From an uncultured Alphaproteobacteria bacterium (GTDB lineage Bacteria > Pseudomonadota > Alphaproteobacteria > Rs-D84): a stretch of DNA of 34,085 nucleotides. The notes under the pieces were generated by a model, which had not been told where the DNA came from, made no database searches, and saw only the letters and a program-made list of their open reading frames with translations. This document shows, piece after piece, positions 3 to 25,132 of this stretch. Positions within the stretch are counted from its first letter, which is position 1; each line of letters starts with the position of its first letter. The stretch covers positions 1-34,085 of the forward strand of contig CALXNF010000010.1 in the NCBI GenBank assembly GCA_944389685.1, written 5' to 3'. The translations under genes were made by a program, and so were the position numbers.

Positions 3-581
3 GGTGGGGCCGACTTTCGCAGTCCAGAATCAATAGAACGATTAAAACAGGCGGATTTAATTATAACGAATCCGCCTTTTTCTTTGTTTCGTGAGTTTAT
101 GGACTTACTTATTCAGTACGATAAAAAATTTTTAGTCATAGGTAACAAAAATGCTGTGGCTTACAGAAATATTTTTTCTCAAATAAAAAATAATAAAATT
201 TGGTTTGGTGTTCGTAGGTGGACTGGTGGTATGATATTTATTACTCCAGACAACAGTAAGAAAGCTGTTCCTGCAATATGGTTTACCAACCTGGAACATT
301 TATATGCCCCTGCCCCGATATCTTTGAAAAAATCTTTTAATAGTTTGGAATATAAGCGATACGACAATGCTGATGCAATAAATATAAACAGGACAGCGGA
401 CATACCGAATGATTATTTGGGTATAATGGGGGTGCCTATAAGTTTTCTTGAAAGATATAATTCGTACCAATTTGAAATATTGGGATTAGATAAAGATTTT
501 ACATATGATAAAGGGGCTGGCATGGTAAGTGGGCAGCGAATATATACAAGGATTTTTATCAAAAAAAGACCTTGCGAATAA
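3..581 (+). CDS. N6-adenine DNA methyltransferase, EcoRI-methylase-like (5'-truncated by window edge)
   Basis: The frame is open from nt 3 (GGADFRSPESIERLKQADLIITNPPFSLFREF...). The tracked ORF 84..581 therefore only begins at an internal TTG. The catalytic NPPF motif lies at nt 69-80. Downstream blocks (KIWFG, YDNADAININ, GIMGVPISFL) look like EcoRI-type adenine MTases. TAA stop at 579-581. Confidence 0.8.
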   Translation, partial: GGADFRSPESIERLKQADLIITNPPFSLFREFMDLLIQYDKKFLVIGNKNAVAYRNIFSQIKNNKIWFGVRRWTGGMIFITPDNSKKAVPAIWFTNLEHLYAPAPISLKKSFNSLEYKRYDNADAININRTADIPNDYLGIMGVPISFLERYNSYQFEILGLDKDFTYDKGAGMVSGQRIYTRIFIKKRPCE

Positions 582-1618
582 AGGGGTATATATTTCATAC
601 TGTTCATGTGTTAAAAAGATTTGTCGTTTTATTTATTTCTATTTTTGTGTCGTTTGGTGCACTAGCGTTTGAGCTTCAGGATTTAACCGCCTATAATGCC
701 GTCGCTATAAAAACTATGAAACCGACAGATACAATTCGCCCCGATAAAAAATACTCTTTGCAAATTACTGGTACAAAAGACCTAGAAAAAGTTTTAGGTA
801 CGGAAAAGAAAGAATTTAAAACCTTGTATGTGTATGTTGGTGATACGCAAGTTGAAGAATACAATACTGCTAAATGGTATTATTATTATCAACCGTCTTG
901 GAATGGTCGCGGACGTGGTAAATTAAACTATAAGCGTAATCAAATAACAGAATCTGGTAAAGCGGGAGATACTTTATTTGTCGCAAGAAAAAATAATGAT
1001 GAATTGTTGTTTCTTATTGTAGAGAAAGACAATCCTATAAAACAAAAACTTTTGCATAGCTTAGGTTTAGAAAGTGAGAAAGTCATAAAAGAACCATCAT
1101 TTTGGGAGCGATTGTGGGGAACTAAATCAGAAGAAACATCGGAATATGAAATAGAGGAAGAAAAGTTATCTATACCGAAAATCTCGGAAAAATCATGGGT
1201 GCGTGTTTACTTTACCCCAGGCAATGATTGTGAAAACAATATCATCGCAGAAATCAATCAAGCAAAGAAGATAGATATAGCCGTCTATTCTATTACCAAC
1301 CAGAACATAGTTGATGCGATAATAGACGCCAAAGAACGTGGGGCAAAAATAAGGGTAATTACAGATAGGTTGCAATCAGCTGGTAAATATTCTTTGGCGG
1401 AAGAATTAGAATCAGCAGGAATACCTGTTATCACTAACGTAAAGCATAAGATAATGCATAACAAGTTTGCAATATTTGACGGGAAACGCATAGAAAGCGG
1501 TAGTTATAATTGGACGGACAGCGCGACAAAATCAAACGCAGAAAATTGTATGTTCTTTGACCAAGAAGATAAAGCGTTTACTAAGCAATTTGAATATTTA
1601 TGGGATTTGTATCAATAA
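572..1618 (+). CDS. Phospholipase D / Nuc-family endonuclease with an extra N-terminal domain and an N-terminal hydrophobic (signal/anchor-like) helix
   Basis: The C-terminal ~140 aa has a single HKD motif, HNKFAIFDGKRIESGSYNW (nt 1457-1510), and Nuc-like flanks (WVRVYFTPGND..., AENCMFF). aa ~34-205 form a domain I do not recognise. The longest start is TTG 572, which overlaps the MTase by 10 nt. An alternative GTG at 608 gives MLKRFVVLFISIFVSFGALA|FE. Confidence 0.8.
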   Translation: MRIKGYIFHTVHVLKRFVVLFISIFVSFGALAFELQDLTAYNAVAIKTMKPTDTIRPDKKYSLQITGTKDLEKVLGTEKKEFKTLYVYVGDTQVEEYNTAKWYYYYQPSWNGRGRGKLNYKRNQITESGKAGDTLFVARKNNDELLFLIVEKDNPIKQKLLHSLGLESEKVIKEPSFWERLWGTKSEETSEYEIEEEKLSIPKISEKSWVRVYFTPGNDCENNIIAEINQAKKIDIAVYSITNQNIVDAIIDAKERGAKIRVITDRLQSAGKYSLAEELESAGIPVITNVKHKIMHNKFAIFDGKRIESGSYNWTDSATKSNAENCMFFDQEDKAFTKQFEYLWDLYQ

Positions 1619-1620
1619 TA

Positions 1621-1645
1621 AAAACGGCGTTTTGCCGTTTTTATT
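1621..1645. terminator. Bidirectional intrinsic terminator between convergent genes
   Basis: Hairpin AAAACGGC-GTTT-GCCGTTTT, flanked by an A-run on the left and a T-run on the right. It lies between stop 1616-1618 (+) and stop 1645-1647 (-). Confidence 0.75.
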
Positions 1646-1965
1646 TATCTTAGACCTTTTGCGCGACAGCATGCAGATGCAGCACTGCGCCAATCAGAAT
1701 ATTTCTTTGACGGGGAACGTAAGTCTTGCCATGCTTGCCATCCGCTACATTTTTTATCTGAACCTGTGCCAGTACATTTTGCGTATCTACGTAATGTGCA
1801 AGTTTGGTTAGACGTCTTACCGGTATCTGTAGTACATTTGACGACAACGGTTTGGTTTTTTGCGTCATTCTTTCCCAGTTCTTTAGAAGATAAAAGTTGG
1901 TATGCGTTTGCACCATAAAAAGTTGTGCCAATTAAACATAATGCAATAAATAATTTTTTCATCAT
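1645..1965 (-). CDS. Small secreted Lys-rich, Cys-containing protein (hypothetical)
   Basis: The tracked ORF is 1645..1980. The likely start is ATG 1965 (MMKKLF...), preceded by the SD-like GGGGGTG. Signal peptide MMKKLFIALCLIGTTFYGANA|YQ. The mature ~85 aa has 6 Cys, including a CC pair. I recognise no family motif. Confidence 0.6.
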   Translation of the reverse strand: MMKKLFIALCLIGTTFYGANAYQLLSSKELGKNDAKNQTVVVKCTTDTGKTSNQTCTLRRYAKCTGTGSDKKCSGWQAWQDLRSPSKKYSDWRSAASACCRAKGLR

Positions 1966-1989
1966 ATTATGCACCCCCATTCATAATTA

Positions 1990-2025: not shown

Positions 2026-3774
2026 TTATTCGCCGGTCGTTTCTTTAGTGGTCCAAGGTTCATCATTCATTACCAGAAAATATAGTTCCGGATTTTCCGT
2101 GCCGGGATTTCTGATGATTGGGCGGACTACATAAATATCTACATTACAAGCGTGGTTGTTTTTTTCTTTTTGAACTTCTTCCAGATTAAAATGGAATTTA
2201 TTTGCAAAGTCCATTGCTTGCAAGAATGCGGCATCATCATCGGCCGCACTGTATGCGTCCCCTGCCCACATCAGCCACATACCATGATTAACGACGTTTT
2301 CTTGACCCTGCAGGTCATCGGCAGATAATAATGTTAATGGTTTAAATTCAATATCGCTTGTAAATTCACCCGTACTTGTTTCCGACCAGTCGTACACTCC
2401 CCCGATAAACTTAAGAGCACCATATATTAATCCACCAGCACTTTCTAGTTTTGCTAAGGCACCAGCGTTAGCTAGTGTAGAATGAAATAACCAATCTTTT
2501 ACTCGACCGGAAAAAGTACTGCTACGTGCAACTTTTGCGGCACTTCGTAACTGTTTCCCCCCTGTGTTCAGTGCTTTTACGGTTCGCCATGTTCTGGCAA
2601 TCATATTGCCCCTTTGGGCAGGTTTCAGAACGCTTTTTAGCTCTCGGCGGTATTTGTTTAAGGAAGAAAAAGTTTCGCTATATTCTTTATATTTCTTTAC
2701 GTTTTCATCATTCTTTTCTAATTCTTTTAGGGTTTTTGTATAATTTTCAATCTCTTTAGTTTTTTCAAGATATTTTGCTTCATCAATTGTTCTGTCGATA
2801 TTTTTTAATTCTTCGGTTGCTTTCGCATATTTCTGCCCTAATTTTATGTAGTTTTTTACCGAGGTTTCTTCCCGTAACGTACGCATTGATGTGGATAATG
2901 TTTTAAGTATTTTTGACGCGCGTGCAGATTTTGTGGCCCCTAAAATTGCGGCACCACCACCTGCTGTTACAACTGTTATTGCTACGTCCAAACCTATTTC
3001 CAGATAAGAAATCCATTGTAAATTGACGTCCCCCGCAACATAATAATCGTTACTGTCATCTTCTAAATTTACGGTTTCTTTCATAGCCAGATTTATCATG
3101 GCGTCATCATAAGTCAAAGCAGATTTGCCGGTACATTGACCATTTTGTGGAAATATTGTATCAATGTTATCTTCTATATATTTTAAAGAAACCGTATTGT
3201 TTTTCCCTTTCCCGATGAAATTTTCTAAGCTGCCGGATTGTACCACCATAATTGCATACCATGCAGGATCTGTATTAGTCCAGATAGCATCATCGTTAGG
3301 ATCGCCAACGCGTGGATTGGGGTCAGAAGAAGGCAACGTTTTTTTATCGCCTAATGTTATTCGTTGCTTTAATATTTTTGGTTGAGTTTCATAGTTTATA
3401 ACGATTTCACGACCATTTTGGAAAGTATATGTTATCGGTAAAAAAGTTATTGTTTCTTCTTCTGGAAGATCTGTAAATTCCGGACATTTTAATACATTGC
3501 GCAAAACGTCCGGTTGTTGCATCGTTTGGTAAATCCATTTTTTTATATCTTCTTCTGAAGCGCTTTCGTCGATTAATGAAGAATTTTCTATTAAAGAATT
3601 TCTAAAAATGGTTGTGGAACATGTTGTATTATCTGGGGCTCGTGCTAATAATTCTTCTGCAGGGATGAAGTCAGGTGAGTCAACTGGTAAAATTATATCT
3701 TCATTCATATCTGCGCAAAGCGCCACGTTTGTGGCGCAGAATATAAAAACAAATGGCATAAGTATTGATTTCAT
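2026..3774 (-). CDS. Hypothetical secreted/membrane protein (582 aa) with a Gly/Ala-rich hydrophobic hairpin and a coiled-coil loop
   Basis: Signal peptide MKSILMPFVFIFCATNVALCA|D. Hydrophobic segment AITVVTAGGGAAILGA at aa ~254-281 (nt 2932-3015). K/E-rich, heptad-like stretch at aa ~300-385. Second hydrophobic segment AGGLIYGALKFIGGVY at aa ~432-461 (nt 2392-2481). No family motif recognised. Confidence 0.7.
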   Translation of the reverse strand: MKSILMPFVFIFCATNVALCADMNEDIILPVDSPDFIPAEELLARAPDNTTCSTTIFRNSLIENSSLIDESASEEDIKKWIYQTMQQPDVLRNVLKCPEFTDLPEEETITFLPITYTFQNGREIVINYETQPKILKQRITLGDKKTLPSSDPNPRVGDPNDDAIWTNTDPAWYAIMVVQSGSLENFIGKGKNNTVSLKYIEDNIDTIFPQNGQCTGKSALTYDDAMINLAMKETVNLEDDSNDYYVAGDVNLQWISYLEIGLDVAITVVTAGGGAAILGATKSARASKILKTLSTSMRTLREETSVKNYIKLGQKYAKATEELKNIDRTIDEAKYLEKTKEIENYTKTLKELEKNDENVKKYKEYSETFSSLNKYRRELKSVLKPAQRGNMIARTWRTVKALNTGGKQLRSAAKVARSSTFSGRVKDWLFHSTLANAGALAKLESAGGLIYGALKFIGGVYDWSETSTGEFTSDIEFKPLTLLSADDLQGQENVVNHGMWLMWAGDAYSAADDDAAFLQAMDFANKFHFNLEEVQKEKNNHACNVDIYVVRPIIRNPGTENPELYFLVMNDEPWTTKETTGE

Positions 3775-3781
3775 AAATTTT

Positions 3782-5284
3782 TTAATCGTCTATTCTTATT
3801 GTGTCGTCTACAACCATATTTTCTGTTGATATTTCAAGGGTATCGGGATCATACATATAAAAACCTGCATACATATCAATATCGTCTTCGTTCCAGTCAC
3901 ATTTGCCTTGATCTTTTACGGAAGAGATGATTGCATTTTTTACTTTTTCCCATTGTTGTGTATCCATTATTAACACATTCCCGCGAGAACCGTCTGGATT
4001 TATTTCATACAAAACATAGTCTTCTTCGTTAACACAATATGTTTTTCCTAAAATCGGTTTAAAAACTTTTGTATTGATATCATCATTTGCCAGACCATCG
4101 CCGCAGACGGTGTAACAACCCTCATTATGATCAACGTCTTGACAGTTTATGATGTCGTTTGATAAATCGGAATTAACAAGACTGTACAAAGTTGAACCAG
4201 CATGTTTTGCAGCATTGCTTCCTATTAAATAAACTAAAGCACCGCCATCAAAAAATTTTGTCGCTTTAGAAGCTAAATTTTTCTTGATAATTTTTGTATA
4301 ATTTTTGACTCCGGTTTTTAATACCCCTTTTCCTCCTAAGCGAGCAGCAGCACTAACCGAACTAGCCATACTTAAATCAATGGCAGATCGTGCTAATAAA
4401 TGACTCCCTGTACGAGTCATACTTCTTGCTGTGTTGGTTGCCCCAAGTTTCGCAATACCTTTCGCAGTACTTTTTAATCCTGCGCCAATTGCTGCCCGAC
4501 CTGCTGTTACGGCTGCGCCACCAGCGCCACCAGCAAAAAATGTTAGAATTGTTGCAGCGGCAGTTGCTCCCCAACCAACAATATCAATGGTCATTTGCCA
4601 AGAACGGTTGTTTTCACATAGTATGGCACCTCGTTTTTGCATCGTCGAATCTAATACCTGAGAGATCTCTATAAGAACTTCATCCCAGTTTATATTTATT
4701 CCATAATTTTCATCTACTACTTCCCCAGATAAAGCGATTAATGCAGATTTATATTTATACAAGTTATCGTCGTTTCCTAAAAAGTCTAAAATAAATGCAT
4801 TATCTAATCTTGCTGTAGGGTCTGCTTTATTGGCATTTATGTATGCAGTAACTAAATCAACAAAGAATACTCGCTGAGCTTCTGTATCTGGGCCTAATAT
4901 ATTGTAGACAATAATAGAAAGAATCTCTTGGTCAGCATTTGAAAAATCACCCTGAGAGCCATATCGCATTCTTTTGCGTACAATATCCCAATTTATAGTT
5001 AGGCGAATTTCTGGGTTATTATAAATGACAGTATCTATGTTTTTGGCGAATAAATCCGGATAATTGGAACAAGTTGTACGATAAGATGCGGCATTCGCAA
5101 CCGCACCGTTATAATCAGCCGCCAACCCATTGATAGCATTTTCTACTTGTGAATAAAGTTCACAAGCAACCAATTCATCGCAATCTGTATAGCTCATACA
5201 CTCGCTGGAAACTGCCGCATTACCGGCGAAAGAAAAAAAAGGAGATATCAATATAGGATAAAAAATAGTTTTTAATTTTATCAT
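3782..5284 (-). CDS. Hypothetical secreted/membrane protein (500 aa), same architecture as the 582-aa neighbour
   Basis: Signal peptide MIKLKTIFYPILISPFFSFAGNA|A. Cys-bearing N- and C-terminal domains. Gly/Ala-rich hydrophobic segment WGATAAATILTFFAGGAGGAAVTAGRAAIGAGL at aa 233-270 (nt 4475-4588). A basic loop follows, then FFDGGALVYLIGSNAA at aa ~343-358. The start overlaps the upstream stop as ATGA. Confidence 0.7.
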   Translation of the reverse strand: MIKLKTIFYPILISPFFSFAGNAAVSSECMSYTDCDELVACELYSQVENAINGLAADYNGAVANAASYRTTCSNYPDLFAKNIDTVIYNNPEIRLTINWDIVRKRMRYGSQGDFSNADQEILSIIVYNILGPDTEAQRVFFVDLVTAYINANKADPTARLDNAFILDFLGNDDNLYKYKSALIALSGEVVDENYGININWDEVLIEISQVLDSTMQKRGAILCENNRSWQMTIDIVGWGATAAATILTFFAGGAGGAAVTAGRAAIGAGLKSTAKGIAKLGATNTARSMTRTGSHLLARSAIDLSMASSVSAAARLGGKGVLKTGVKNYTKIIKKNLASKATKFFDGGALVYLIGSNAAKHAGSTLYSLVNSDLSNDIINCQDVDHNEGCYTVCGDGLANDDINTKVFKPILGKTYCVNEEDYVLYEINPDGSRGNVLIMDTQQWEKVKNAIISSVKDQGKCDWNEDDIDMYAGFYMYDPDTLEISTENMVVDDTIRIDD

Positions 5285-6198
5285 TTTTTTGCATCTTTTA
5301 ACGTTTGAGATATCTTTGCTATCAGTTGAGCACGATTAATAGAATTTGTTTGTTGTTGGCATTCTGGCGCTGTGGGATTCTTTTCGCAATACAGAGCCTT
5401 ATTAACTTTTGCCATTTGCTCCATGCGAGTCAAATAATCTTCTTCTGGTTCAATTGTAGGAATGATGTATGCAGACTTATCTGCATATGGTGCATAACCT
5501 GCCGCATCGTTTTGTATTCGTTGGGTAAACGTTAAATCTGATGCTGTCTTCGGAAATTCTGCTTTTGCTAATTGTGTGGTGCCAGATGTCGCATTAGTAG
5601 ATTGTAAGTTTTCTAATTCTTTTTTCCTTTCTAGCATTTCTTGAGCCCAAGGGTCACCGTTCCACGTTGGCAGCTGTGGCTGATAAGGATTTTGAAATTC
5701 TACTTTTTGTGTGTTTACACTTGTGTTAGACGTTGTTGCACTAGGAAACGGAACGTACCCACTCGTTGGTACAACCAAAGCTTTTTGTGATACGTAGTTT
5801 TTAAATTCTGTATCAATAAAACCTGAACATGGCGTCACATAATTTTTATTGGGCAGACTAGCCAGTTGAACGGTTATAGTTGGGCGCGCGTCGTCTACAT
5901 CTATGCCCGCACAATTATTACGCGTTGAGCAATACGAAGCAACTAGCGCACTTACAATTGTTTGACATTCACTTGTGTCTACATCTGTTCCTTGGATATA
6001 AACAGGAACGGGCATACGTTGATTGTATGGGCCATTTGGATCCCAAAACGGGTTAGAAGAATAATTTTGAACGTTTTGAATTTGACCGTATTGTGAAAAT
6101 GGTGTCGTTCCAGTATTTTGAAAAGTCGTCGCCATTACACTAGAGGTGCTAACATAAAAAAACGTACAAATTATTATAGAAGTTAAAATTTTATTCAT
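5281..6198 (-). CDS. Hypothetical secreted protein (305 aa)
   Basis: Signal peptide MNKILTSIIICTFFYVSTSSVMA|T. Q/N/P/T-rich, with 6 Cys in the mature part. SD-like AGGGTGATAGAGAGA upstream. The stop overlaps the next gene's ATG. No family motif recognised. Confidence 0.65.
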   Translation of the reverse strand: MNKILTSIIICTFFYVSTSSVMATTFQNTGTTPFSQYGQIQNVQNYSSNPFWDPNGPYNQRMPVPVYIQGTDVDTSECQTIVSALVASYCSTRNNCAGIDVDDARPTITVQLASLPNKNYVTPCSGFIDTEFKNYVSQKALVVPTSGYVPFPSATTSNTSVNTQKVEFQNPYQPQLPTWNGDPWAQEMLERKKELENLQSTNATSGTTQLAKAEFPKTASDLTFTQRIQNDAAGYAPYADKSAYIIPTIEPEEDYLTRMEQMAKVNKALYCEKNPTAPECQQQTNSINRAQLIAKISQTLKDAKK

Positions 6199-6224: not shown

Positions 6225-6698
6225 TTATATCAAAAAGCTCATTGTAAGCAAAGTTAAAATTCCGGCGCCGATGAAAAATGGAGCAAATGGTATGAACTTT
6301 TGTTTGTGAATGGTTCCCCATATTACCCCGCTAATGCAAGAAATTACCAGAGCTATTGCTAAACCCGTAACCCCAAGCCATATTCCGCCAACGCTGATCA
6401 GCTTTATATCACCCATCCCTATGGGGGTATTTGATGCGGTGGAATGTTTGCGGACCGGAATTTTAAAAAATTTTCCTATTACCGTTGCTAAGATATAGCC
6501 GGACGTTGCCGCAATAACTGATTCGGTTAAATCAAATTTCCACGGAAAAAAAGTGACAATTATTAAACCTGTTAGTAATAGTGGGAATAGATACACGTCT
6601 GGGATTATACGCCGGCGCCAATCTGCAACAGATATACACCAAGCGCACCAAGCTGCAATCGCTAATAATATAAAGAAAAAAACTGTAGTGATATTCAT
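6225..6698 (-). CDS. Prepilin-peptidase-type (A24, GxGD) intramembrane aspartyl protease, short form without methyltransferase domain
   Basis: Polytopic membrane protein. First Asp motif ADWRRRIIPD, second Asp motif GMGDIKL, and PFAPFFIGAG near the C-terminus. Strong SD (AAGGGGGA) upstream of the ATG. Confidence 0.8.
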   Translation of the reverse strand: MNITTVFFFILLAIAAWCAWCISVADWRRRIIPDVYLFPLLLTGLIIVTFFPWKFDLTESVIAATSGYILATVIGKFFKIPVRKHSTASNTPIGMGDIKLISVGGIWLGVTGLAIALVISCISGVIWGTIHKQKFIPFAPFFIGAGILTLLTMSFLI

Positions 6699-7366: not shown

Positions 7367-9412
7367 ATGGAAAAGCTAAGTTTGAATTTTAAAGATTATG
7401 ATATAGGTGGAACCCTTCTGCGGGCGTATTATGACGCTAGTGATAACTTAATATTCGTCATAGATAATACAATTGATGATAGAAAACTTAATGTTTTGTT
7501 AGTAATTAATCCTGTCGGTGATAGAAAATGGGACGATATTTTAGAAAATGACTACGGAATAGATTTAGAAACAGTTAGACCGAAAAAAAACAATAAATAT
7601 CAGAAGCTTGATATTGAATATAGCGGGTTGGAAGAATATGAAGCTTTGATAAACGCATATGTGTCTGGTAAAAACATTCAGACGGAATTAGATGCTTTGT
7701 TGGATTTCAGAGAACGTTCTGTAGTTAATTCTGCACAAGAGCGTTTAACCGTTGCAGAAGCTAATGCTGAAAAAGCCCGAGAAACCATTTTAAAAACGAA
7801 AGAAAGTATTGAAGATTTACAGCTTAGATTAAAGCAGTTACGCACAAAGTTGTCGCAACAAAAGAAACAGGTCGGACGGGAACCGACAAAAAAATCGGCA
7901 TCAAAGATATTGCGCACAGACGCACAAATTGATGCCATAAACGAAAAATTAAGTCGTGCGAAGAAACGTCTGACGAATGCACAGCGGCGCTTAGTCGTTG
8001 CCGATGAGGATGCAGAGTTAGCTAGGGAAGTATTATCAAAACCTTCTTCCTTTACTGGCAGGCGCGATCTTGCTGCGTTACGGCAGACGGCGGTTGCCCC
8101 GAGACAAGCAAGTGAAATTATTGCGTTTAAAGACGAAAACGACGAAAAGACGTTACCTGAAGACTTTGACGAGTCAGTTGAGCTAACAGAAAATATAGAT
8201 TTTCAAAACGAAGAAAAAAAGGCGGAAATAATGGCTGATGAAGAAAAAAAAGAAGAAGTGAAACCTTTGTTTGATCAGGATCCAGAAATACTAGATGAGG
8301 AAATTGCGTTTAAACCGATAGAATTTGGTGTTTCTAGTCCGGATAGTTCAAACCCTGTTTCAGAAAAACCGGAAATTTATGAAAATATAGTAGAAGATAA
8401 ACCGCTTGCTTTTACGCCGCCTGAAGATAATGCCGCATCTTCTAAGCCTATAAACGTTACACCGGTAACTAATCAAAGCGAAGAGGCGGATATGCAAAGA
8501 GTAACGCCGCCAGTTTTGGATACAATAAAGTCAGTAGAAGAACCAGAGATAAGTACAAACAAAAGCGTGCCGCCTGTTCAGCAAGCTGCATCCCAGCCTT
8601 CTGCTGCACGTCCTGTGCCACCGGCTGCGACGTTATCAAATGCAACTGCGCGCCCTGTTTCTCCAATCACTGGAAATGTTTTGCCAACAAACCCGGCTCC
8701 TCGTAAGCCAACGCTGATATATTATATAATGTTAGTATTGCTGATAGGTTTGTCTATTTTCACGTTGTGGTTATACCAAAAGAATACTAATGAAAAAGTA
8801 CCAGATTTGACCGCGACTATACAGACTACAGAAAGTGTTGCTTCTCAACAAGATGAGGGCTTAGATGTTAGTGCGGATAGTCCGTTTTTGCCAGAGATAA
8901 AAGTAGAGGAACCTGCCCCTGCTCCTGAGGTTCAAATAGTTGTGGAAGCGCCTGTGGTTACCCCAGAGCCTGTTATAACTCCTGAACCTGTTGTTGAACC
9001 AGAAGTACTAGAAAGTACTTTACCAGAAGTTATGGAACAGATTCCATCAAATGAACCAGAAGCTGCGGTCCCAGTTGCGGACGTTACGGTTGAAACTGTT
9101 GTTAGTTATCCTGCACCTGTTGTCGAAGAAGAGCCGATAGTCCCAGTACAAACAGAAGATGAAATTTTAACAAGTAAACCGTCTTATAACGTTTCTCAGA
9201 ACGAGAATATGTTTGTCGCCGCACCAGAGTACGATACAGAGGTAATTAATAACACAAATTCAGCAAATTATGAGGATTTGCCGACCTGTCCTGATGGTAC
9301 TGCGCCAGATGTAAATGGTTGTTGTACTGGTGAAGTTTTGACGGATATGGGGGATATGGGCTTTAACTGTTGCCCACAGGCGGGGGGTGATTGTTTCCCA
9401 CCATTGTTTTAA
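7367..9412 (+). CDS. Hypothetical bitopic membrane protein (681 aa): cytoplasmic coiled-coil, acidic/Pro-rich regions, Cys-rich C-terminal tail
   Basis: SD GAGAGGGA. Coiled-coil-like stretch at aa ~110-225. Single TM segment LIYYIMLVLLIGLSIFTLWLY (nt 8711-8776). A P/E/V-rich repeat-like region (VVTPEPVITPEPVVEPEV). Terminal CPDGTAPDVNGCCTGE...FNCCPQAGGDCFPPLF. Confidence 0.7.
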   Translation: MEKLSLNFKDYDIGGTLLRAYYDASDNLIFVIDNTIDDRKLNVLLVINPVGDRKWDDILENDYGIDLETVRPKKNNKYQKLDIEYSGLEEYEALINAYVSGKNIQTELDALLDFRERSVVNSAQERLTVAEANAEKARETILKTKESIEDLQLRLKQLRTKLSQQKKQVGREPTKKSASKILRTDAQIDAINEKLSRAKKRLTNAQRRLVVADEDAELAREVLSKPSSFTGRRDLAALRQTAVAPRQASEIIAFKDENDEKTLPEDFDESVELTENIDFQNEEKKAEIMADEEKKEEVKPLFDQDPEILDEEIAFKPIEFGVSSPDSSNPVSEKPEIYENIVEDKPLAFTPPEDNAASSKPINVTPVTNQSEEADMQRVTPPVLDTIKSVEEPEISTNKSVPPVQQAASQPSAARPVPPAATLSNATARPVSPITGNVLPTNPAPRKPTLIYYIMLVLLIGLSIFTLWLYQKNTNEKVPDLTATIQTTESVASQQDEGLDVSADSPFLPEIKVEEPAPAPEVQIVVEAPVVTPEPVITPEPVVEPEVLESTLPEVMEQIPSNEPEAAVPVADVTVETVVSYPAPVVEEEPIVPVQTEDEILTSKPSYNVSQNENMFVAAPEYDTEVINNTNSANYEDLPTCPDGTAPDVNGCCTGEVLTDMGDMGFNCCPQAGGDCFPPLF

Positions 9413-23134: not shown

Positions 23135-24135
23135 TTAAAATTATGCAGAATGGTACAGAACGTTTTTTAGACCCAAATATTCCAGATGAATTGGTGGCTT
23201 CCATTCGTCCAAAGGTTTTATCTGATTTTATAGGGCATGATTCACTTAAGCAGAATTTGTCTGTATTTATCTCTGGTGCAAAAGCGCGCGGTGAAGCGAT
23301 GGATCATGTTTTGTTGTACGGCCCTCCGGGCTTAGGTAAGACCACGTTGGCGCATATTGTGGCAAATGAATTAGGTACAAATTTTCGCGCCACGTCGGCA
23401 CCTATGTTAACTAAGCAAGGGGATTTAGCGGCAATTTTAACTTCTTTGGAACCTATGGACGTGTTGTTTATTGATGAAATACATCGCTTGCCGACCGCAA
23501 TAGAAGAAGTTTTGTACTCTGCTATGGAGGACTTCAAGCTGGATATTATGCTTGGTGAGGGTCCTTCTGCAAAAAGTGTTCGTATAGATTTGCCGCCATT
23601 TACGCTTGTTGGGGCTACAACTCGTACGGGGCTGTTATCGAATCCTTTGCGGGATAGGTTTGGAATTGATTTGCGGTTGTCTTTTTATTCACCAGATGAT
23701 TTGGCCCGTATAATTGTCCGCAGCGCAAATATTTTAGGCACGTCAATTGATGAGGGGGGAGCCAAGAAACTAGCTCTTAGTGCGCGTGGGACGCCTCGTA
23801 TTGCAAATAGATTGTTAAAGCGCGCACGTGATTTTGCAACTGCTTTGGGGCAGACTGCGATTTCTGCGGATACCATAAAGACTACGTTGGTTCAATTACA
23901 TATTGATGAAAGCGGATTAGATGAATTAGACCGTGAATATATGAATGCAATTGTAAAGCACTATGCTGGTGGACCCGTGGGAATAGAAAATTTGGCGGCG
24001 GCGCTTTCAGAACCCGCGGATACAATAGAAGATGTTATAGAACCATATTTAATGCAGCTTGGGTTTATTCAACGCACTCCTAGAGGAAGGGTTGTGACAG
24101 ATGCTGGTTATGCTCATCTGGGATTGGAAAAATAG
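23131..24135 (+). CDS. ruvB: Holliday junction branch-migration ATPase RuvB
   Basis: Walker [10 protein letters not shown], Walker [28 protein letters not shown], and a winged-helix C-terminus. The start is GTG 23131 (GTGA overlap with the upstream stop) or ATG 23143. Confidence 0.95.
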
Positions 24136-24141
24136 AAAATT

Positions 24142-24768
24142 ATGAAAAATTTAGTAGATTTTTTCACTTTGGCAGAGAAGTTAGAATGTGAATACAGATC
24201 AACGCGTATGTCTGACGGTACGCAGCAATCTGTTGCATCACATTCTTGGAATATGGCGATGATGGCAATTGTTTTACAACCGTATTTAAAAACGCCAGTT
24301 GATATGGAAAAGGTTTTAAAACTATGTGCGTTGCACGATTTACCAGAAGCAATTGCGCATGATATACCGCTGCATATGCAAGATAAAGAAGTTTGTATTC
24401 AAAAACGTGAACAGGAAAATCGGGCAGTTATAAAAATAATTGGCTTGTTGAAAGACAAAGAAGTGGCTAAATGTTTTACAGAATATGACGCACGGGTTTC
24501 TCCTGAATCGAAATTGGTAAAGGCGTTAGATAGTTTAGATGCTTGCGTGCAGCATATGTGTGTAAAAGATTTGTCTTATATTAGTTCGTTTAAAGATAAC
24601 TTTTATTGGAAATTGTTTTTTTCAGATGATTTTGCAAAAAAATTTGATTTTGAACCTATATTAACTAACGTATTTAAAGAAATAAAATTACGTGCGTCTG
24701 AAAGATTAAAAAACGAACTTGGTATAGATTTTAGATGTTTTATCGGAGTTGAAAATGAAAATTCATAA
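24142..24768 (+). CDS. HD-domain phosphohydrolase (YfbR-like 5'-nucleotidase family)
   Basis: HSWNMAMMA ... LHDLPEAIAHDIP, a metal-binding H...HD...D pattern. Confidence 0.75.
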   Translation: MKNLVDFFTLAEKLECEYRSTRMSDGTQQSVASHSWNMAMMAIVLQPYLKTPVDMEKVLKLCALHDLPEAIAHDIPLHMQDKEVCIQKREQENRAVIKIIGLLKDKEVAKCFTEYDARVSPESKLVKALDSLDACVQHMCVKDLSYISSFKDNFYWKLFFSDDFAKKFDFEPILTNVFKEIKLRASERLKNELGIDFRCFIGVENENS

Positions 24769-25132
24769 ATTTCCATTTGCCATTGCATACGCAGATACGG
24801 ATGCAGGTGGTATAGTTTATCATGGAAGATATATTGAAATTGCAGAACGTGCAAGAATGGACGTGCTTCGCGGAATGAAATTTCCAGATGGCGATTTAGG
24901 TTTCGTTGTGCGTGATTTGAACATCAGGTATATAAAACCTTTGTTCTTAGCGGATACCGTTGTTGTTGAAACGACGGTTATGAAATTAGGTGCCGCATCT
25001 TTGGCAGTTGAACAAAAGTTCGTGAAAGACGGTGAAATTTGTGCTATACTTTATGCAACTGCGGCATATATTGGTGCAAATATGCAACCACGACGTATAC
25101 CAGAATGTGTTGCGGCACCTTTTAGAGAATAA
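24755..25132 (+). CDS. ybgC: Tol-Pal-associated acyl-CoA thioesterase YbgC (4HBT fold)
   Basis: YADTDAGGIVYHGRYIEIAERARMDVLR. ATG 24755 with GGAG 7 nt upstream is preferred over the tracked TTG 24749. Confidence 0.85.
   Translation: MKIHKFPFAIAYADTDAGGIVYHGRYIEIAERARMDVLRGMKFPDGDLGFVVRDLNIRYIKPLFLADTVVVETTVMKLGAASLAVEQKFVKDGEICAILYATAAYIGANMQPRRIPECVAAPFRE

What the first reader, a model, noticed from the sequence alone, without database searches (positions are those of the whole stretch)
2026..5284. Adjacent 500-aa and 582-aa proteins share a rare architecture: signal peptide, globular domain, Gly/Ala-rich hydrophobic segment, basic or coiled-coil loop, second hydrophobic segment, C-terminal domain
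Seen in the sequence:
- First hydrophobic segment. The 500-aa protein has ...IDIVGWGATAAATILTFFAGGAGGAAVTAGRAAIGAGLKSTAKG... (nt 4475-4588). The 582-aa protein has ...LEIGLDVAITVVTAGGGAAILGATKSARAS... (nt 2932-3015).
- Both segments are followed by a Lys/Arg-rich segment. In the 582-aa protein this is short plus an ~85-aa K/E heptad-like insert.
- Second Gly-containing hydrophobic stretch: FFDGGALVYLIGSNAA in the 500-aa protein and ESAGGLIYGALKFIGGVY in the 582-aa protein.
- The flanking N- and C-terminal domains contain cysteines and acidic stretches, and would both face the periplasm or exterior if the two hydrophobic segments form a hairpin.

Inference:
- The two genes are divergent paralogs encoding membrane-inserting proteins with a small-residue, glycine-zipper-like hairpin.
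- This type of feature is known from pore-forming and membrane-inserting toxins or translocators, and from bilobed inclusion-membrane proteins.
- I cannot assign them to any of those families.
Basis: partly seen in the sequence, partly recalled or inferred. Interest (0 to 1): 0.6.

Follow-up and report, generated by a model that had tools for sequence, protein, structure and literature searches.

The report
Split-head envelope proteins tied to wall-cutting enzymes
Two neighbouring genes of a tiny-genome gut bacterium (Candidatus Enterousia) encode unrelated, previously undescribed exported proteins with the same odd layout; they belong to a lineage-specific, mix-and-match gene set that is genetically tied to cell-wall-cutting enzymes and sits next to a pilus-processing protease, but their function is still unproven.

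Summary
Both ORFs (p500, 3782-5284; p582, 2026-3774; minus strand) have a signal peptide and an acidic, Cys-bearing head split in two. Between the halves lie a conserved Gly/Ala-rich hydrophobic segment and a strongly basic, Cys-free arm. The quoted stretches are 12-18 nt off the stated coordinates.

- Profile-profile and iterative searches find no homology between the two proteins, so calling them divergent paralogs is unsupported.
- The second "hydrophobic" stretch is too polar to be a stand-alone membrane helix, and neither first segment is a canonical glycine zipper.
- No Pfam, NCBIfam, PDB-sequence or Foldseek match exists.

New context:
- The organism is an Enterousia-like alphaproteobacterium (order Rs-D84, ~0.9 Mb genomes).
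- The operon A24 prepilin peptidase - p305 - variable slot gene (p500 here) - p582 - p111 is syntenic in 80 loci.
- p582 and p305 are near-universal in that family and were not found in sister families.
- p305 modules are fused in other genomes to p500 bodies, p582-like bodies, a GH108 muramidase and M23 peptidases.
- A GH108 gene overlaps the p582 stop in 23-25 of 80 loci and is fused to p582 in one protein.

Best reading (~0.4): membrane-anchored periplasmic scaffolds linked to peptidoglycan hydrolases. Main rival (~0.3): exported membrane-active effectors.

The parts
6225..6698 (-). A24 (GxGD) prepilin peptidase, first gene of the operon
   Evidence: Pfam Peptidase_A24, E 1e-16. It is the only A24 gene in the genome. 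It heads the same gene string in 74 of 80 related loci.
5281..6198 (-). p305, a secreted carrier protein with two modules: 305N (residues ~28-140) and 305C (residues ~165-290)
   Evidence: No known family. Its stop overlaps the p500 start (ATGA). The modules are fused elsewhere to p500 bodies, p582-like bodies, cl0/cl1 slot proteins, GH108 and M23 enzymes. The mature N-terminal motif S.YG.IQNVQNYS.NPFW is at least 80% conserved in 107 proteins.
3782..5284 (-). p500, the occupant of the variable slot
   Evidence: 112 homologues, all from uncultured gut Alphaproteobacteria. Present in 16 of 80 syntenic loci. AF2 pLDDT 76.6, pTM 0.75.
4952..5206 (-). p500 N1 module (residues 27-111, CxxYTDCDxLVACEL...)
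   Evidence: It occurs on a p582-type body in chimera P0337 (E 7e-26). It is replaced by p305 modules in the fusion homologues P0082-P0105.
4499..4588 (-). p500 hydrophobic segment 1 (residues 233-262; conserved D234, W238, T241, AGGAGG)
   Evidence: KD 1.52 and Hessa +2.7. Conservation profile. AF2 pLDDT about 30.
4265..4498 (-). p500 polycationic arm (residues 263-340)
   Evidence: Net charge +13, no Cys, Lys/Arg period 4.0. Length varies from 27 to 157 aa across the family.
4208..4255 (-). p500 segment 2 (residues 344-359, FFDGGALVYLIGSNAA)
   Evidence: KD 0.83 and Hessa +9.7, so not TM-like on its own.
3785..4168 (-). p500 C-terminal half of the head (residues 373-500)
   Evidence: Invariant C381, C390, C394, C417, C462 and NEDD.D...R.D. 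pLDDT about 90.
2026..3774 (-). p582, the core gene of the set
   Evidence: Found in 162 of 171 genomes of the family and 0 of 29 in sister families. Median 57% identity to orthologues, like the neighbouring A24 gene. AF2 pLDDT 69.
2932..3015 (-). p582 hydrophobic segment 1 (residues 254-281; W254, E259, D263, T267, T270, G272-274, G279)
   Evidence: KD 1.81 and Hessa +4.1. Conservation profile. pLDDT 25-38.
2650..2907 (-). p582 K/E-rich coiled-coil hairpin (residues 290-375)
   Evidence: Periodicity 3.3-3.5. AF2 helices 283-380 with pLDDT 83-88. Length is very variable; it is about 300 aa in P0268.
2479..2649 (-). p582 Arg/Lys-rich segment (residues 376-432)
   Evidence: Part of the loop, which has net charge +17.
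2392..2445 (-). p582 segment 2 (residues 444-461)
   Evidence: KD 1.03 and Hessa +8.0.
2029..2388 (-). p582 C-terminal half of the head (residues 463-582; LLSADD, HGMWLMW, DDDAA.LQA, CNVDIYVV)
   Evidence: Invariant columns. pLDDT 80-93. Fused to GH108 in P0268.
1645..1980 (-). p111, a small basic 6-Cys secreted protein and the last gene of the operon
   Evidence: Present in 77 of 80 loci and the most conserved gene of the set (median 75% identity).
1614..1640 (-). Terminator-like hairpin (AAACGGC-AAAAC-GCCGTTT followed by a T-run) after the p111 stop
   Evidence: Read directly from the sequence.

Best explanation
p500 and p582 are two members, unrelated in sequence, of a modular set of Sec-exported envelope proteins specific to one family (Rs-D84 / Candidatus Enterousia).

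Each has an acidic, disulfide-bearing head made of an N-half and a C-half. The head is interrupted by a Gly/Ala-rich hydrophobic segment, a long polycationic or coiled-coil arm, and a weaker amphipathic return segment.

Most likely mechanism (inferred):
- The signal peptide puts the N-half into the periplasm.
- Segment 1 stops transfer, with Asp on the outside and Lys/Arg on the inside.
- The basic arm stays in the cytoplasm.
- The return segment, helped by pairing with segment 1, brings the C-half back out. The two halves then assemble into one periplasmic head tethered to the inner membrane.

In the periplasm, p582 (core gene) and the slot protein (p500 in this genome) act together with p305 as scaffolds or carriers that position peptidoglycan hydrolases (GH108 muramidase, M23 endopeptidases).

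Shown: the layout, its conservation, the synteny, the fusions and the genetic coupling to hydrolases. Inferred: the topology, the compartment and the scaffold role.
For: Layout and charge:
- Acidic heads and basic, Cys-free arms are conserved in 98 and 85 homologues.
- Conserved Asp precedes segment 1 and Lys/Arg follows it.
- The hydrophobic segments sit exactly at the head/arm junctions.
- The p500 model packs the N and C halves together (pTM 0.75).

Support for a true membrane hairpin:
- A minimal p500-like variant (L055) has an uninterrupted 49-aa hairpin with KD 2.43 and no arm.

Core-gene behaviour:
- p582 is a near-universal gene under ordinary purifying selection.

Link to peptidoglycan hydrolases:
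- A GH108 muramidase gene overlaps the p582 stop in 23-25 of 80 loci.
- GH108 is fused to the p582 C-terminus in P0268.
- p305 modules are fused to GH108, to M23 peptidases, and to p500, p582-like, cl0 and cl1 bodies.
- p305 and p582 share the same phyletic range.

Operon structure:
- Overlapping or 7-nt-spaced genes behind the only A24 peptidase, with a terminator after p111.
Against: - Segment 2 is far too polar for a normal TM helix (Hessa +7 to +10). Segment 1 is marginal (+2.7 to +4.1), so Sec might translocate the whole chain.
- AlphaFold2 gives pLDDT 25-38 for both segment 1 regions and does not model clean helices there.
- The commonest slot family (cl0) has three Gly-rich segments before a Cys-rich domain. 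That does not fit a simple inner-membrane hairpin.
- The slot gene is replaced by at least four mutually unrelated families among close relatives. That looks more like an interaction or arms-race locus than housekeeping machinery.
- No topology predictor, expression data or experiment was available.
Confidence: 0.4

Rival explanations
1. Exported effectors. After Sec export and disulfide formation the proteins leave the periplasm through the type IVb pilus machine, as TcpF and CofJ do. They then act on a partner or prey cell together with the tagged muramidase and M23 peptidases. The marginally hydrophobic Gly/Ala helix and the polycationic arm insert into, or bind, the foreign anionic membrane. 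The p305 modules serve as the common delivery tag.
For: - Segment 1 hydrophobicity is marginal, as expected for a segment that must escape the producer's membrane.
- The cationic arm is periodic.
- The same N-terminal modules are shared with lytic enzymes of two classes.
- The slot gene is polymorphic.
- The operon is headed by the peptidase of a complete type IVb pilus system: PAP_PilO, T2SSE, T2SSF, TcpQ, secretin, a pilin and large minor-pilin-like genes.
- Type IVb pili secrete operon-encoded Sec-dependent proteins through a flexible N-terminal aromatic signal (PMC9565799, PMC6048534).
- The tagged enzymes start with a conserved SLL.P..[FY]P.T motif.
- The host lineage is thought to depend on other cells (PMC12306168).
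- Gly-rich segments of slot homologues weakly resemble Bacteriocin_IIc and Gly-zipper_OmpA, below the cut-offs.
Against: - p582 evolves like a housekeeping gene.
- The L055 variant has a strongly hydrophobic hairpin that Sec would integrate into the membrane.
- The hydrophobic segments sit at the base of the arm, not at its tip.
- No immunity-like gene was recognised.
- There is no fold or sequence match to any pore former.
- The pilus marker TcpQ is order-wide (199 of 201 genomes), whereas p582 and p305 are confined to one family.
Confidence: 0.3
2. One reading: the two genes are divergent paralogs encoding pore-forming or translocator-like proteins with a glycine-zipper helical hairpin.
For: - The coarse layout is the same and both segment 2 regions share a short GG[A]L[IV]Y motif.
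- In three related loci (L073, L079, L082) the slot gene really is a p582 paralog (E 1e-21 to 1e-27).
- Chimera P0337 joins a p500 module to a p582 body.
Against: - No significant profile-profile similarity in any region: at most 8.9% probability over at most 66 columns.
- The HMMs do not cross-hit and jackhmmer keeps the families apart.
- The arms differ in kind: Lys period 4.0 versus a heptad coil.
- There is no canonical GxxxGxxxG.
- Segment 2 is not hydrophobic.
- No type III export gate is present for a translocator or Inc route.
Confidence: 0.1
3. Outer-membrane anchoring. Like SlyB/Pcp-type glycine-zipper proteins, the Gly-rich segments pass through Sec and insert into the inner leaflet of the outer membrane, holding the heads under the outer membrane next to the peptidoglycan.
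For: - The Gly/Ala-rich segments are marginally hydrophobic.
- A slot homologue gives a weak Gly-zipper_OmpA hit (17.1 bits against a cut-off of 27).
- The system is linked to peptidoglycan enzymes.
Against: - No lipobox.
- The Pfam glycine-zipper models do not hit p500 or p582.
- A loop of +13 to +18 net charge and 76-150 aa has no parallel in that family.
Confidence: 0.1
4. The A24 GxGD protease cleaves p500 and p582 internally at the Gly-Gly of segment 2. That site has the N-in/C-out orientation of a class III signal peptide, and cleavage would release the C-terminal half.
For: - Constant adjacency to the A24 gene.
- Basic arm, then GG, then a hydrophobic stretch, which resembles a leader/G/hydrophobic arrangement.
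Against: - Ordinary substrates exist elsewhere in the genome: pilins with ..RG|AS[MI][IL]E on contig C54.
- Segment 2 lacks Glu+5 and is weakly hydrophobic.
- The model needs the two halves to stay together as one head.
Confidence: 0.05

Closest known systems
Operon-encoded exoproteins of type IVb pili (TcpF of Vibrio cholerae TCP, CofJ of ETEC CFA/III)
   Same: Sec signal peptide. Encoded with type IVb pilus genes; here directly behind the prepilin peptidase. Lineage-specific folds without homologues. Conserved aromatic-containing N-terminal segments on the mature proteins.
   Different: TcpF and CofJ are soluble, with no hydrophobic segment or basic arm. Here the other pilus genes lie elsewhere in the genome. 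Secretion and minor-pilin binding are untested. p582 and p305 are confined to one family while the pilus is order-wide.
Specialised peptidoglycan hydrolases and their scaffolds in trans-envelope machines (FlgJ; BfpH next to BfpP; R64 PilT next to PilU; ExeAB/GspAB). The gene orders are from my own knowledge.
   Same: A peptidoglycan hydrolase (GH108) in the same operon as the prepilin peptidase. A scaffold domain is either fused to the hydrolase or separate from it in different genomes.
   Different: The enzyme class is GH108 or M23, not a lytic transglycosylase. The scaffold proteins (p305, p582) have no similarity to any of those. The GH108 gene is present in only about 30% of loci.
Polymorphic toxin / effector systems with a constant N-terminal trafficking domain and variable cargo
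   Same: Constant p305 modules joined to alternative C-terminal bodies (p500, p582-like, cl0, cl1, GH108, M23). A hypervariable slot among close relatives.
   Different: No known trafficking domain, no recognised toxin domain other than wall hydrolases, and no immunity gene. The core member p582 is under ordinary purifying selection.
Glycine-zipper membrane proteins (SlyB/Pcp, Rickettsia 17-kDa antigen; Pfam Gly-zipper families) and Gly/Ala-rich pore formers (class II bacteriocins, colicin hydrophobic hairpin)
   Same: Gly/Ala-rich, marginally hydrophobic helices in exported proteins, followed by cationic sequence.
   Different: No model reaches its cut-off. There is no repeated GxxxG. The two hydrophobic stretches are separated by 76-150 residues. 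There is no fold match.
Chlamydial Inc proteins / type III translocators
   Same: Two hydrophobic lobes plus a coiled coil.
   Different: Those lack Sec signal peptides and need a type III system. No FHIPEP export gate was found in this genome or in a complete relative. The lobes here are not contiguous.

Membership tests
p500 and p582 as paralogs of one family | Significant sequence or profile similarity between the two | tested here: not met
   BLASTP E 0.9. hhalign at most 8.9% probability. HMMs do not cross-hit. jackhmmer converges with the families separate.
p500 and p582 as paralogs of one family | Superimposable folds of the head domains | not testable with these tools
   Model coordinates are not exposed. 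Only the order of secondary-structure elements could be compared.
Glycine-zipper membrane proteins (Pfam Gly-zipper_Omp/OmpA/YMGG, Rick_17kDa_Anti) | Match to a family model above its gathering score | tested here: not met
   No hit for p500 or p582. The best hit in a slot homologue is 17.1 bits against a cut-off of 27.
Glycine-zipper membrane proteins (Pfam Gly-zipper_Omp/OmpA/YMGG, Rick_17kDa_Anti) | Repeated (G/A/S)xxxGxxxG motif conserved in the helix | tested here: not met
   p500 conserves AGGAGG, with a single GxxxG. p582 conserves TxGGG....G.
Helical-hairpin pore formers (colicin pore domain, class II bacteriocins, XaxA/YaxA-type) | Sequence or fold match to a known pore-forming domain | tested here: not met
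   No Foldseek hit in PDB or BFVD at E <= 0.001; XaxA matches at E 2.2 over the coiled coil only. Bacteriocin AS-48 at E 0.42 in the profile search. Bacteriocin_IIc is below its cut-off, and only in slot homologues.
Helical-hairpin pore formers (colicin pore domain, class II bacteriocins, XaxA/YaxA-type) | Two adjacent helices hydrophobic enough to span a bilayer | tested here: inconclusive
   Segment 1 is marginal (KD 1.5-1.8, Hessa +2.7 to +4.1). Segment 2 is not hydrophobic (KD 0.8-1.0, Hessa +8 to +10). The Hessa scale values were taken from memory.
Type IVb pilus-secreted exoproteins (TcpF/CofJ class) | Encoded with the genes of a type IVb pilus and carrying a Sec signal peptide | tested here: met
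   The operon is headed by the only A24 peptidase. The type IVb set is present elsewhere in the genome. Signal-like N-termini.
Type IVb pilus-secreted exoproteins (TcpF/CofJ class) | Flexible N-terminal signal with a key aromatic residue that binds the minor pilin; pilus-dependent secretion | not testable with these tools
   Conserved aromatic N-terminal motifs exist, but binding and secretion need experiments or multimer modelling.
Chlamydial Inc proteins / type III translocators | A type III secretion system in the genome | tested here: not met
   FHIPEP was not found in G000 (65% complete) or in the complete relative G041. Flagella are reported absent in Rs-D84 (PMC12306168).
Substrates of prepilin peptidase (class III signal peptide) | N-terminal basic leader, Gly at -1, hydrophobic stretch, usually Glu at +5 | tested here: not met
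   All four operon proteins have Sec-type N-termini. True pilin-like motifs were found only on contig C54.

The most novel reading that the evidence does not exclude
A gut alphaproteobacterium with a reduced genome uses its type IVb pilus machine to deliver a mix-and-match kit of tagged proteins that breaches the envelope of a partner cell. The kit consists of a muramidase, M23 endopeptidases and the 'split-head' membrane-inserting proteins p500 and p582. The p305-derived N-terminal modules act as a new kind of pilus-coupled delivery tag.
Probability: 0.2. Interest if true: 0.8.

Novelty: new variant of a known kind. Interest (0 to 1): 0.5.

Why it matters
Candidatus Enterousia and its Rs-D84 relatives are widespread in human, ruminant, bird and termite guts. 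Their genomes are about 0.9 Mb and lack most biosynthesis, so they probably live off other cells (PMC12306168). How they do this is unknown.

This locus is a near-universal innovation specific to one family. It joins four things: exported proteins of unknown fold, a shared modular tag, cell-wall hydrolases of two classes, and the peptidase of a type IVb pilus. That gives concrete, testable candidates for the machinery of their envelope biology or partner interaction.

It also defines several new protein families: p305N, p305C, the p500 body, the p582 body, and cl0/cl1.

Tried and rejected
- Pfam, NCBIfam, PDB sequence and PDB profile searches on p500, p582, p305 and p111 gave nothing significant.
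- Foldseek of both AF2 models against PDB, and of p500 against BFVD, gave no hit at E <= 0.001.
- hhalign of the families, whole and in 25 region pairs, and against a profile built only from distant p582-type proteins, gave no link between p500 and p582.
- hhalign of the slot families cl0 and cl1 against p500 and p582 gave no link.
- A search for further paralogs in the window's own genome found none.
- A Tad/Flp pilus reading was rejected. There is no Flp pilin. The platform protein is a two-domain T2SSF, and PAP_PilO and TcpQ mark a type IVb system.
- A type III route was rejected.
- A VirB4 gene exists in a complete relative but was not found in this assembly. It was not pursued, because all four operon proteins carry Sec signals.
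- A coarse genome scan for 'hydrophobic segment plus basic arm' also picks up a histidine kinase and an RND pump. The layout is therefore distinctive only when combined with the split acidic head.
- The search for related loci with the widest alignment failed for lack of conserved words and was repeated with a narrower alignment.

Full report
**1. What is in the sequence**

On the minus strand five ORFs follow one another with overlaps or tiny gaps:
- A24 peptidase, 6698-6225.
- p305, 6198-5281. Its stop overlaps the p500 start as ATGA.
- p500, 5284-3782.
- p582, 3774-2026, after a 7-nt gap.
- p111, 1980-1645.

A hairpin followed by a T-run lies after p111, at about 1640-1614. A consensus scan found no more promoter-like or terminator-like sites inside the string than in shuffled sequence. 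gcrA is transcribed divergently upstream.

All four proteins downstream of the peptidase begin with Sec-type signal-like N-termini.

**2. The shared layout, measured**

Each protein has one moderately hydrophobic internal segment:
- p500 residues 233-262, KD 1.52.
- p582 residues 254-281, KD 1.81.
- Family medians are 1.7-1.8 over 98 and 85 homologues.

On the Hessa biological scale (values from my memory) these score +2.7 and +4.1 kcal/mol. Real TM helices of the A24 peptidase and of p681 in the same window score -2.9 and -2.7. The second stretch scores KD 0.83 and 1.03, and about +8 to +10 on the Hessa scale. It is not a credible stand-alone TM helix.

The sequence between the two stretches has these properties:
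- It is Cys-free and strongly basic, at +13 and +17, with family medians of +17 and +18.
- Its length varies widely: 27-157 aa in the p500 family, and from 138 aa to about 300 aa or more in the p582 family.
- The head halves around it are acidic: -16 and -20 in p500, -22 and -15 in p582.

The arms differ in kind. The p500 arm has Lys/Arg every 4.0 residues, with power 13.5 against 4.3 +/- 1.3 in shuffles, and 74 of 98 homologues peak at 4.0-4.1. The p582 arm is a heptad-like coil with period 3.3-3.5.

Segment 1 conserves D234, W238, T241 and AGGAGG in p500. In p582 it conserves W254, E259, D263, T267, T270, GGG and G279. Neither is a repeated GxxxG zipper.

**3. Structure predictions**

- p500: pLDDT 76.6, pTM 0.75. 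The N part (25-225) and the C part (380-500) are confident, at about 90. Residues 227-260 are at about 30.
- p582: pLDDT 69, pTM 0.54. The N part (45-250), the coiled-coil hairpin (290-375) and the C part (500-580) are confident. Residues 251-288 are at 25-38.
- Foldseek found nothing at E <= 0.001 in PDB for either model, or in BFVD for p500. Only coiled-coil noise appeared.

**4. Are they paralogs?**

- BLASTP gives E 0.9.
- hhalign of the family alignments, whole and over 25 region pairs, gives at most 7.9% probability over 6 columns.
- Against a profile built only from distant p582-type proteins, the p500 profile reaches 8.5%. That same profile matches p582 at 100%, E 1.6e-89.
- The family HMMs do not cross-hit in the genome.
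- jackhmmer converges with the families apart.

The paralogy inference is therefore not supported by sequence. Fold superposition could not be done.

**5. They are modules of one system**

- Some p500 homologues (P0082-P0105 and others, 550-770 aa) carry the upstream p305 protein in place of their N-terminal ~110 residues. So do distant p582 homologues (P0322, P0326, P0335, P0339).
- P0337 joins the p500 N1 module (E 7e-26) to a p582-type body (E 4e-116).

**6. Organism and distribution**

The loci come from uncultured gut Alphaproteobacteria, many named Candidatus Enterousia. Sources include human, chicken, ruminant and termite guts. Genomes are 0.7-1.1 Mb.

A published analysis describes Rs-D84/Enterousia as reduced, fermentative and probably dependent on other cells (PMC12306168).

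- p582 was found in 162 of 171 genomes of the family (146 of 151 in the genus) and in 0 of 29 genomes of the five sister families.
- p305 was found in 31 of 31 and 0 of 29 respectively.
- p582 orthologues are 57% identical at the median, like A24 (55%). They are less conserved than gcrA (65%) and p111 (75%) and more conserved than p681 (43%). This is ordinary purifying selection.

**7. Synteny and the variable slot**

In 80 loci the order is p681(-), gcrA(-), then A24, p305, a slot gene, p582, an optional further gene, and p111.

The slot holds:
- a p500-type gene in 16 loci;
- family cl0 in about 41 loci (signal peptide, Gly-rich segments, Cys-rich domain);
- family cl1 in about 9 loci;
- a true p582 paralog in a few loci (L073, L079, L082; E 1e-21 to 1e-27);
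- or the slot body is fused to p305.

cl0 and cl1 show no profile similarity to p500 or p582. A short p500-like variant (L055) has a contiguous, strongly hydrophobic 49-aa hairpin (KD 2.43) and no arm.

**8. The link to peptidoglycan hydrolases**

- The optional gene after p582 encodes p305 modules, a Pro/Thr linker and a Glyco_hydro_108 muramidase, in the L036-type protein followed by a sub-threshold PG_binding_3 match. Examples are L044 (E 3e-17) and L036 (E 3.5e-8). The EGG..DPGGYT motif is present.
- Its start overlaps the p582 stop in 23-25 of 80 loci.
- P0268 (987 aa) is a direct fusion of p582 and GH108.
- The 305C module also heads GH108 genes located elsewhere in the genome (L102). 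It also heads two kinds of Peptidase_M23 proteins. One of these is in the window's own genome, on contig C49 at 24061-24939 (M23 E 3.8e-28, with HxxxD and HLH present).
- The window genome itself has only a stand-alone GH108 without a signal peptide, on contig C59.

**9. The peptidase and the pilus**

- The A24 gene is the only one in the genome.
- Its ordinary substrates exist on contig C54: a 152-aa pilin (..ERG|ASMIE..) and three 399-451-aa pilin-like proteins.
- The genome and a complete relative encode PAP_PilO, T2SSE, a two-domain T2SSF, TcpQ and a lipoprotein secretin, and no Flp pilin. This is a type IVb pilus set.
- TcpQ is order-wide, in 199 of 201 genomes. The pilus therefore does not need p582 or p305.
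- Type IVb pili are known to export operon-encoded, Sec-dependent proteins through a flexible N-terminal aromatic signal bound by the minor pilin (PMC9565799, PMC6048534, PMC10120004).
- The mature N-terminus of the 305N module, S.YG.IQNVQNYS.NPFW, is at least 80% conserved in 107 proteins. The 305C-tagged enzymes start with SLL.P..[FY]P.T. This is a resemblance, not a test.
- No type III export gate is present.

**10. Reading**

The data support three points:
- The heads are extracytoplasmic.
- The two proteins are interchangeable bodies of one modular set.
- The set is genetically tied to wall hydrolases and to the pilus peptidase operon.

I favour inner-membrane-tethered periplasmic scaffolds (0.4), for four reasons:
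- The hydrophobic segments sit at the head/arm junctions.
- The charge pattern follows the positive-inside rule.
- L055 has a true hairpin.
- p582 behaves as a core gene.

The main rival is exported membrane-active effectors (0.3). It explains three things better:
- the marginal hydrophobicity;
- the polymorphic slot;
- the sharing of tags with lytic enzymes.

Noticed in passing
G000 contig C49:24061-24939 (+), outside the window: A 292-aa secreted Peptidase_M23 protein (E 3.8e-28, HxxxD and HLH intact) starts with a p305C-like module right after its signal peptide. A second M23 type with the same tag occurs in relatives (L100, L101).
   Followed up: partly
G000 contig C54:7063-13468: A type IV pilin cluster: a 152-aa pilin (ERG|ASMIE) and three consecutive 399-451-aa pilin-like proteins. 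These are likely the real substrates of the window's A24 peptidase and are candidate minor pilins.
   Followed up: partly
G041 (OZ007020.1) 220-226 kb and 341-344 kb; G000 contigs C35, C63, C68: The type IVb pilus genes (PAP_PilO, T2SSE, T2SSF, TcpQ, lipoprotein secretin) are scattered over the chromosome, away from the peptidase. The TcpQ marker is present in 199 of 201 genomes of the order.
   Followed up: yes
window 1645-1980 (-): p111 is a small, basic, 6-Cys secreted protein. It is the most conserved gene of the locus (median 75% identity, 77 of 80 loci) and its function is unknown.
   Followed up: partly
window 3-1618 (+): An EcoRI-type adenine methyltransferase fragment is followed by a signal-bearing PLD/Nuc-like protein. 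This pair flanks the locus in only a few relatives (PLD in 3 of 80 loci), so it is an accessory insertion.
   Followed up: no
window 7367-9412 (+): p681, a bitopic coiled-coil/acidic protein next to gcrA, is syntenic in 68 of 80 loci but fast-evolving (median 43% identity).
   Followed up: no
G000 contig C59:1276-1857 (locus L091): A stand-alone GH108 protein without a signal peptide lies next to a 202-aa multi-TM protein. This looks like a lysis-cassette (endolysin plus holin) pair.
   Followed up: no
L080 (CAVGNU010000009.1): A contig labelled 'Bacteroides fragilis' carries the complete Enterousia-type locus (p681, gcrA, A24, p305, p582, p111). It is probably a mis-binned contig.
   Followed up: no
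P0268 and other long p582 homologues (P0233, P0235, P0273): The coiled-coil arm of p582 varies from about 90 to about 300 or more residues between species.
   Followed up: partly
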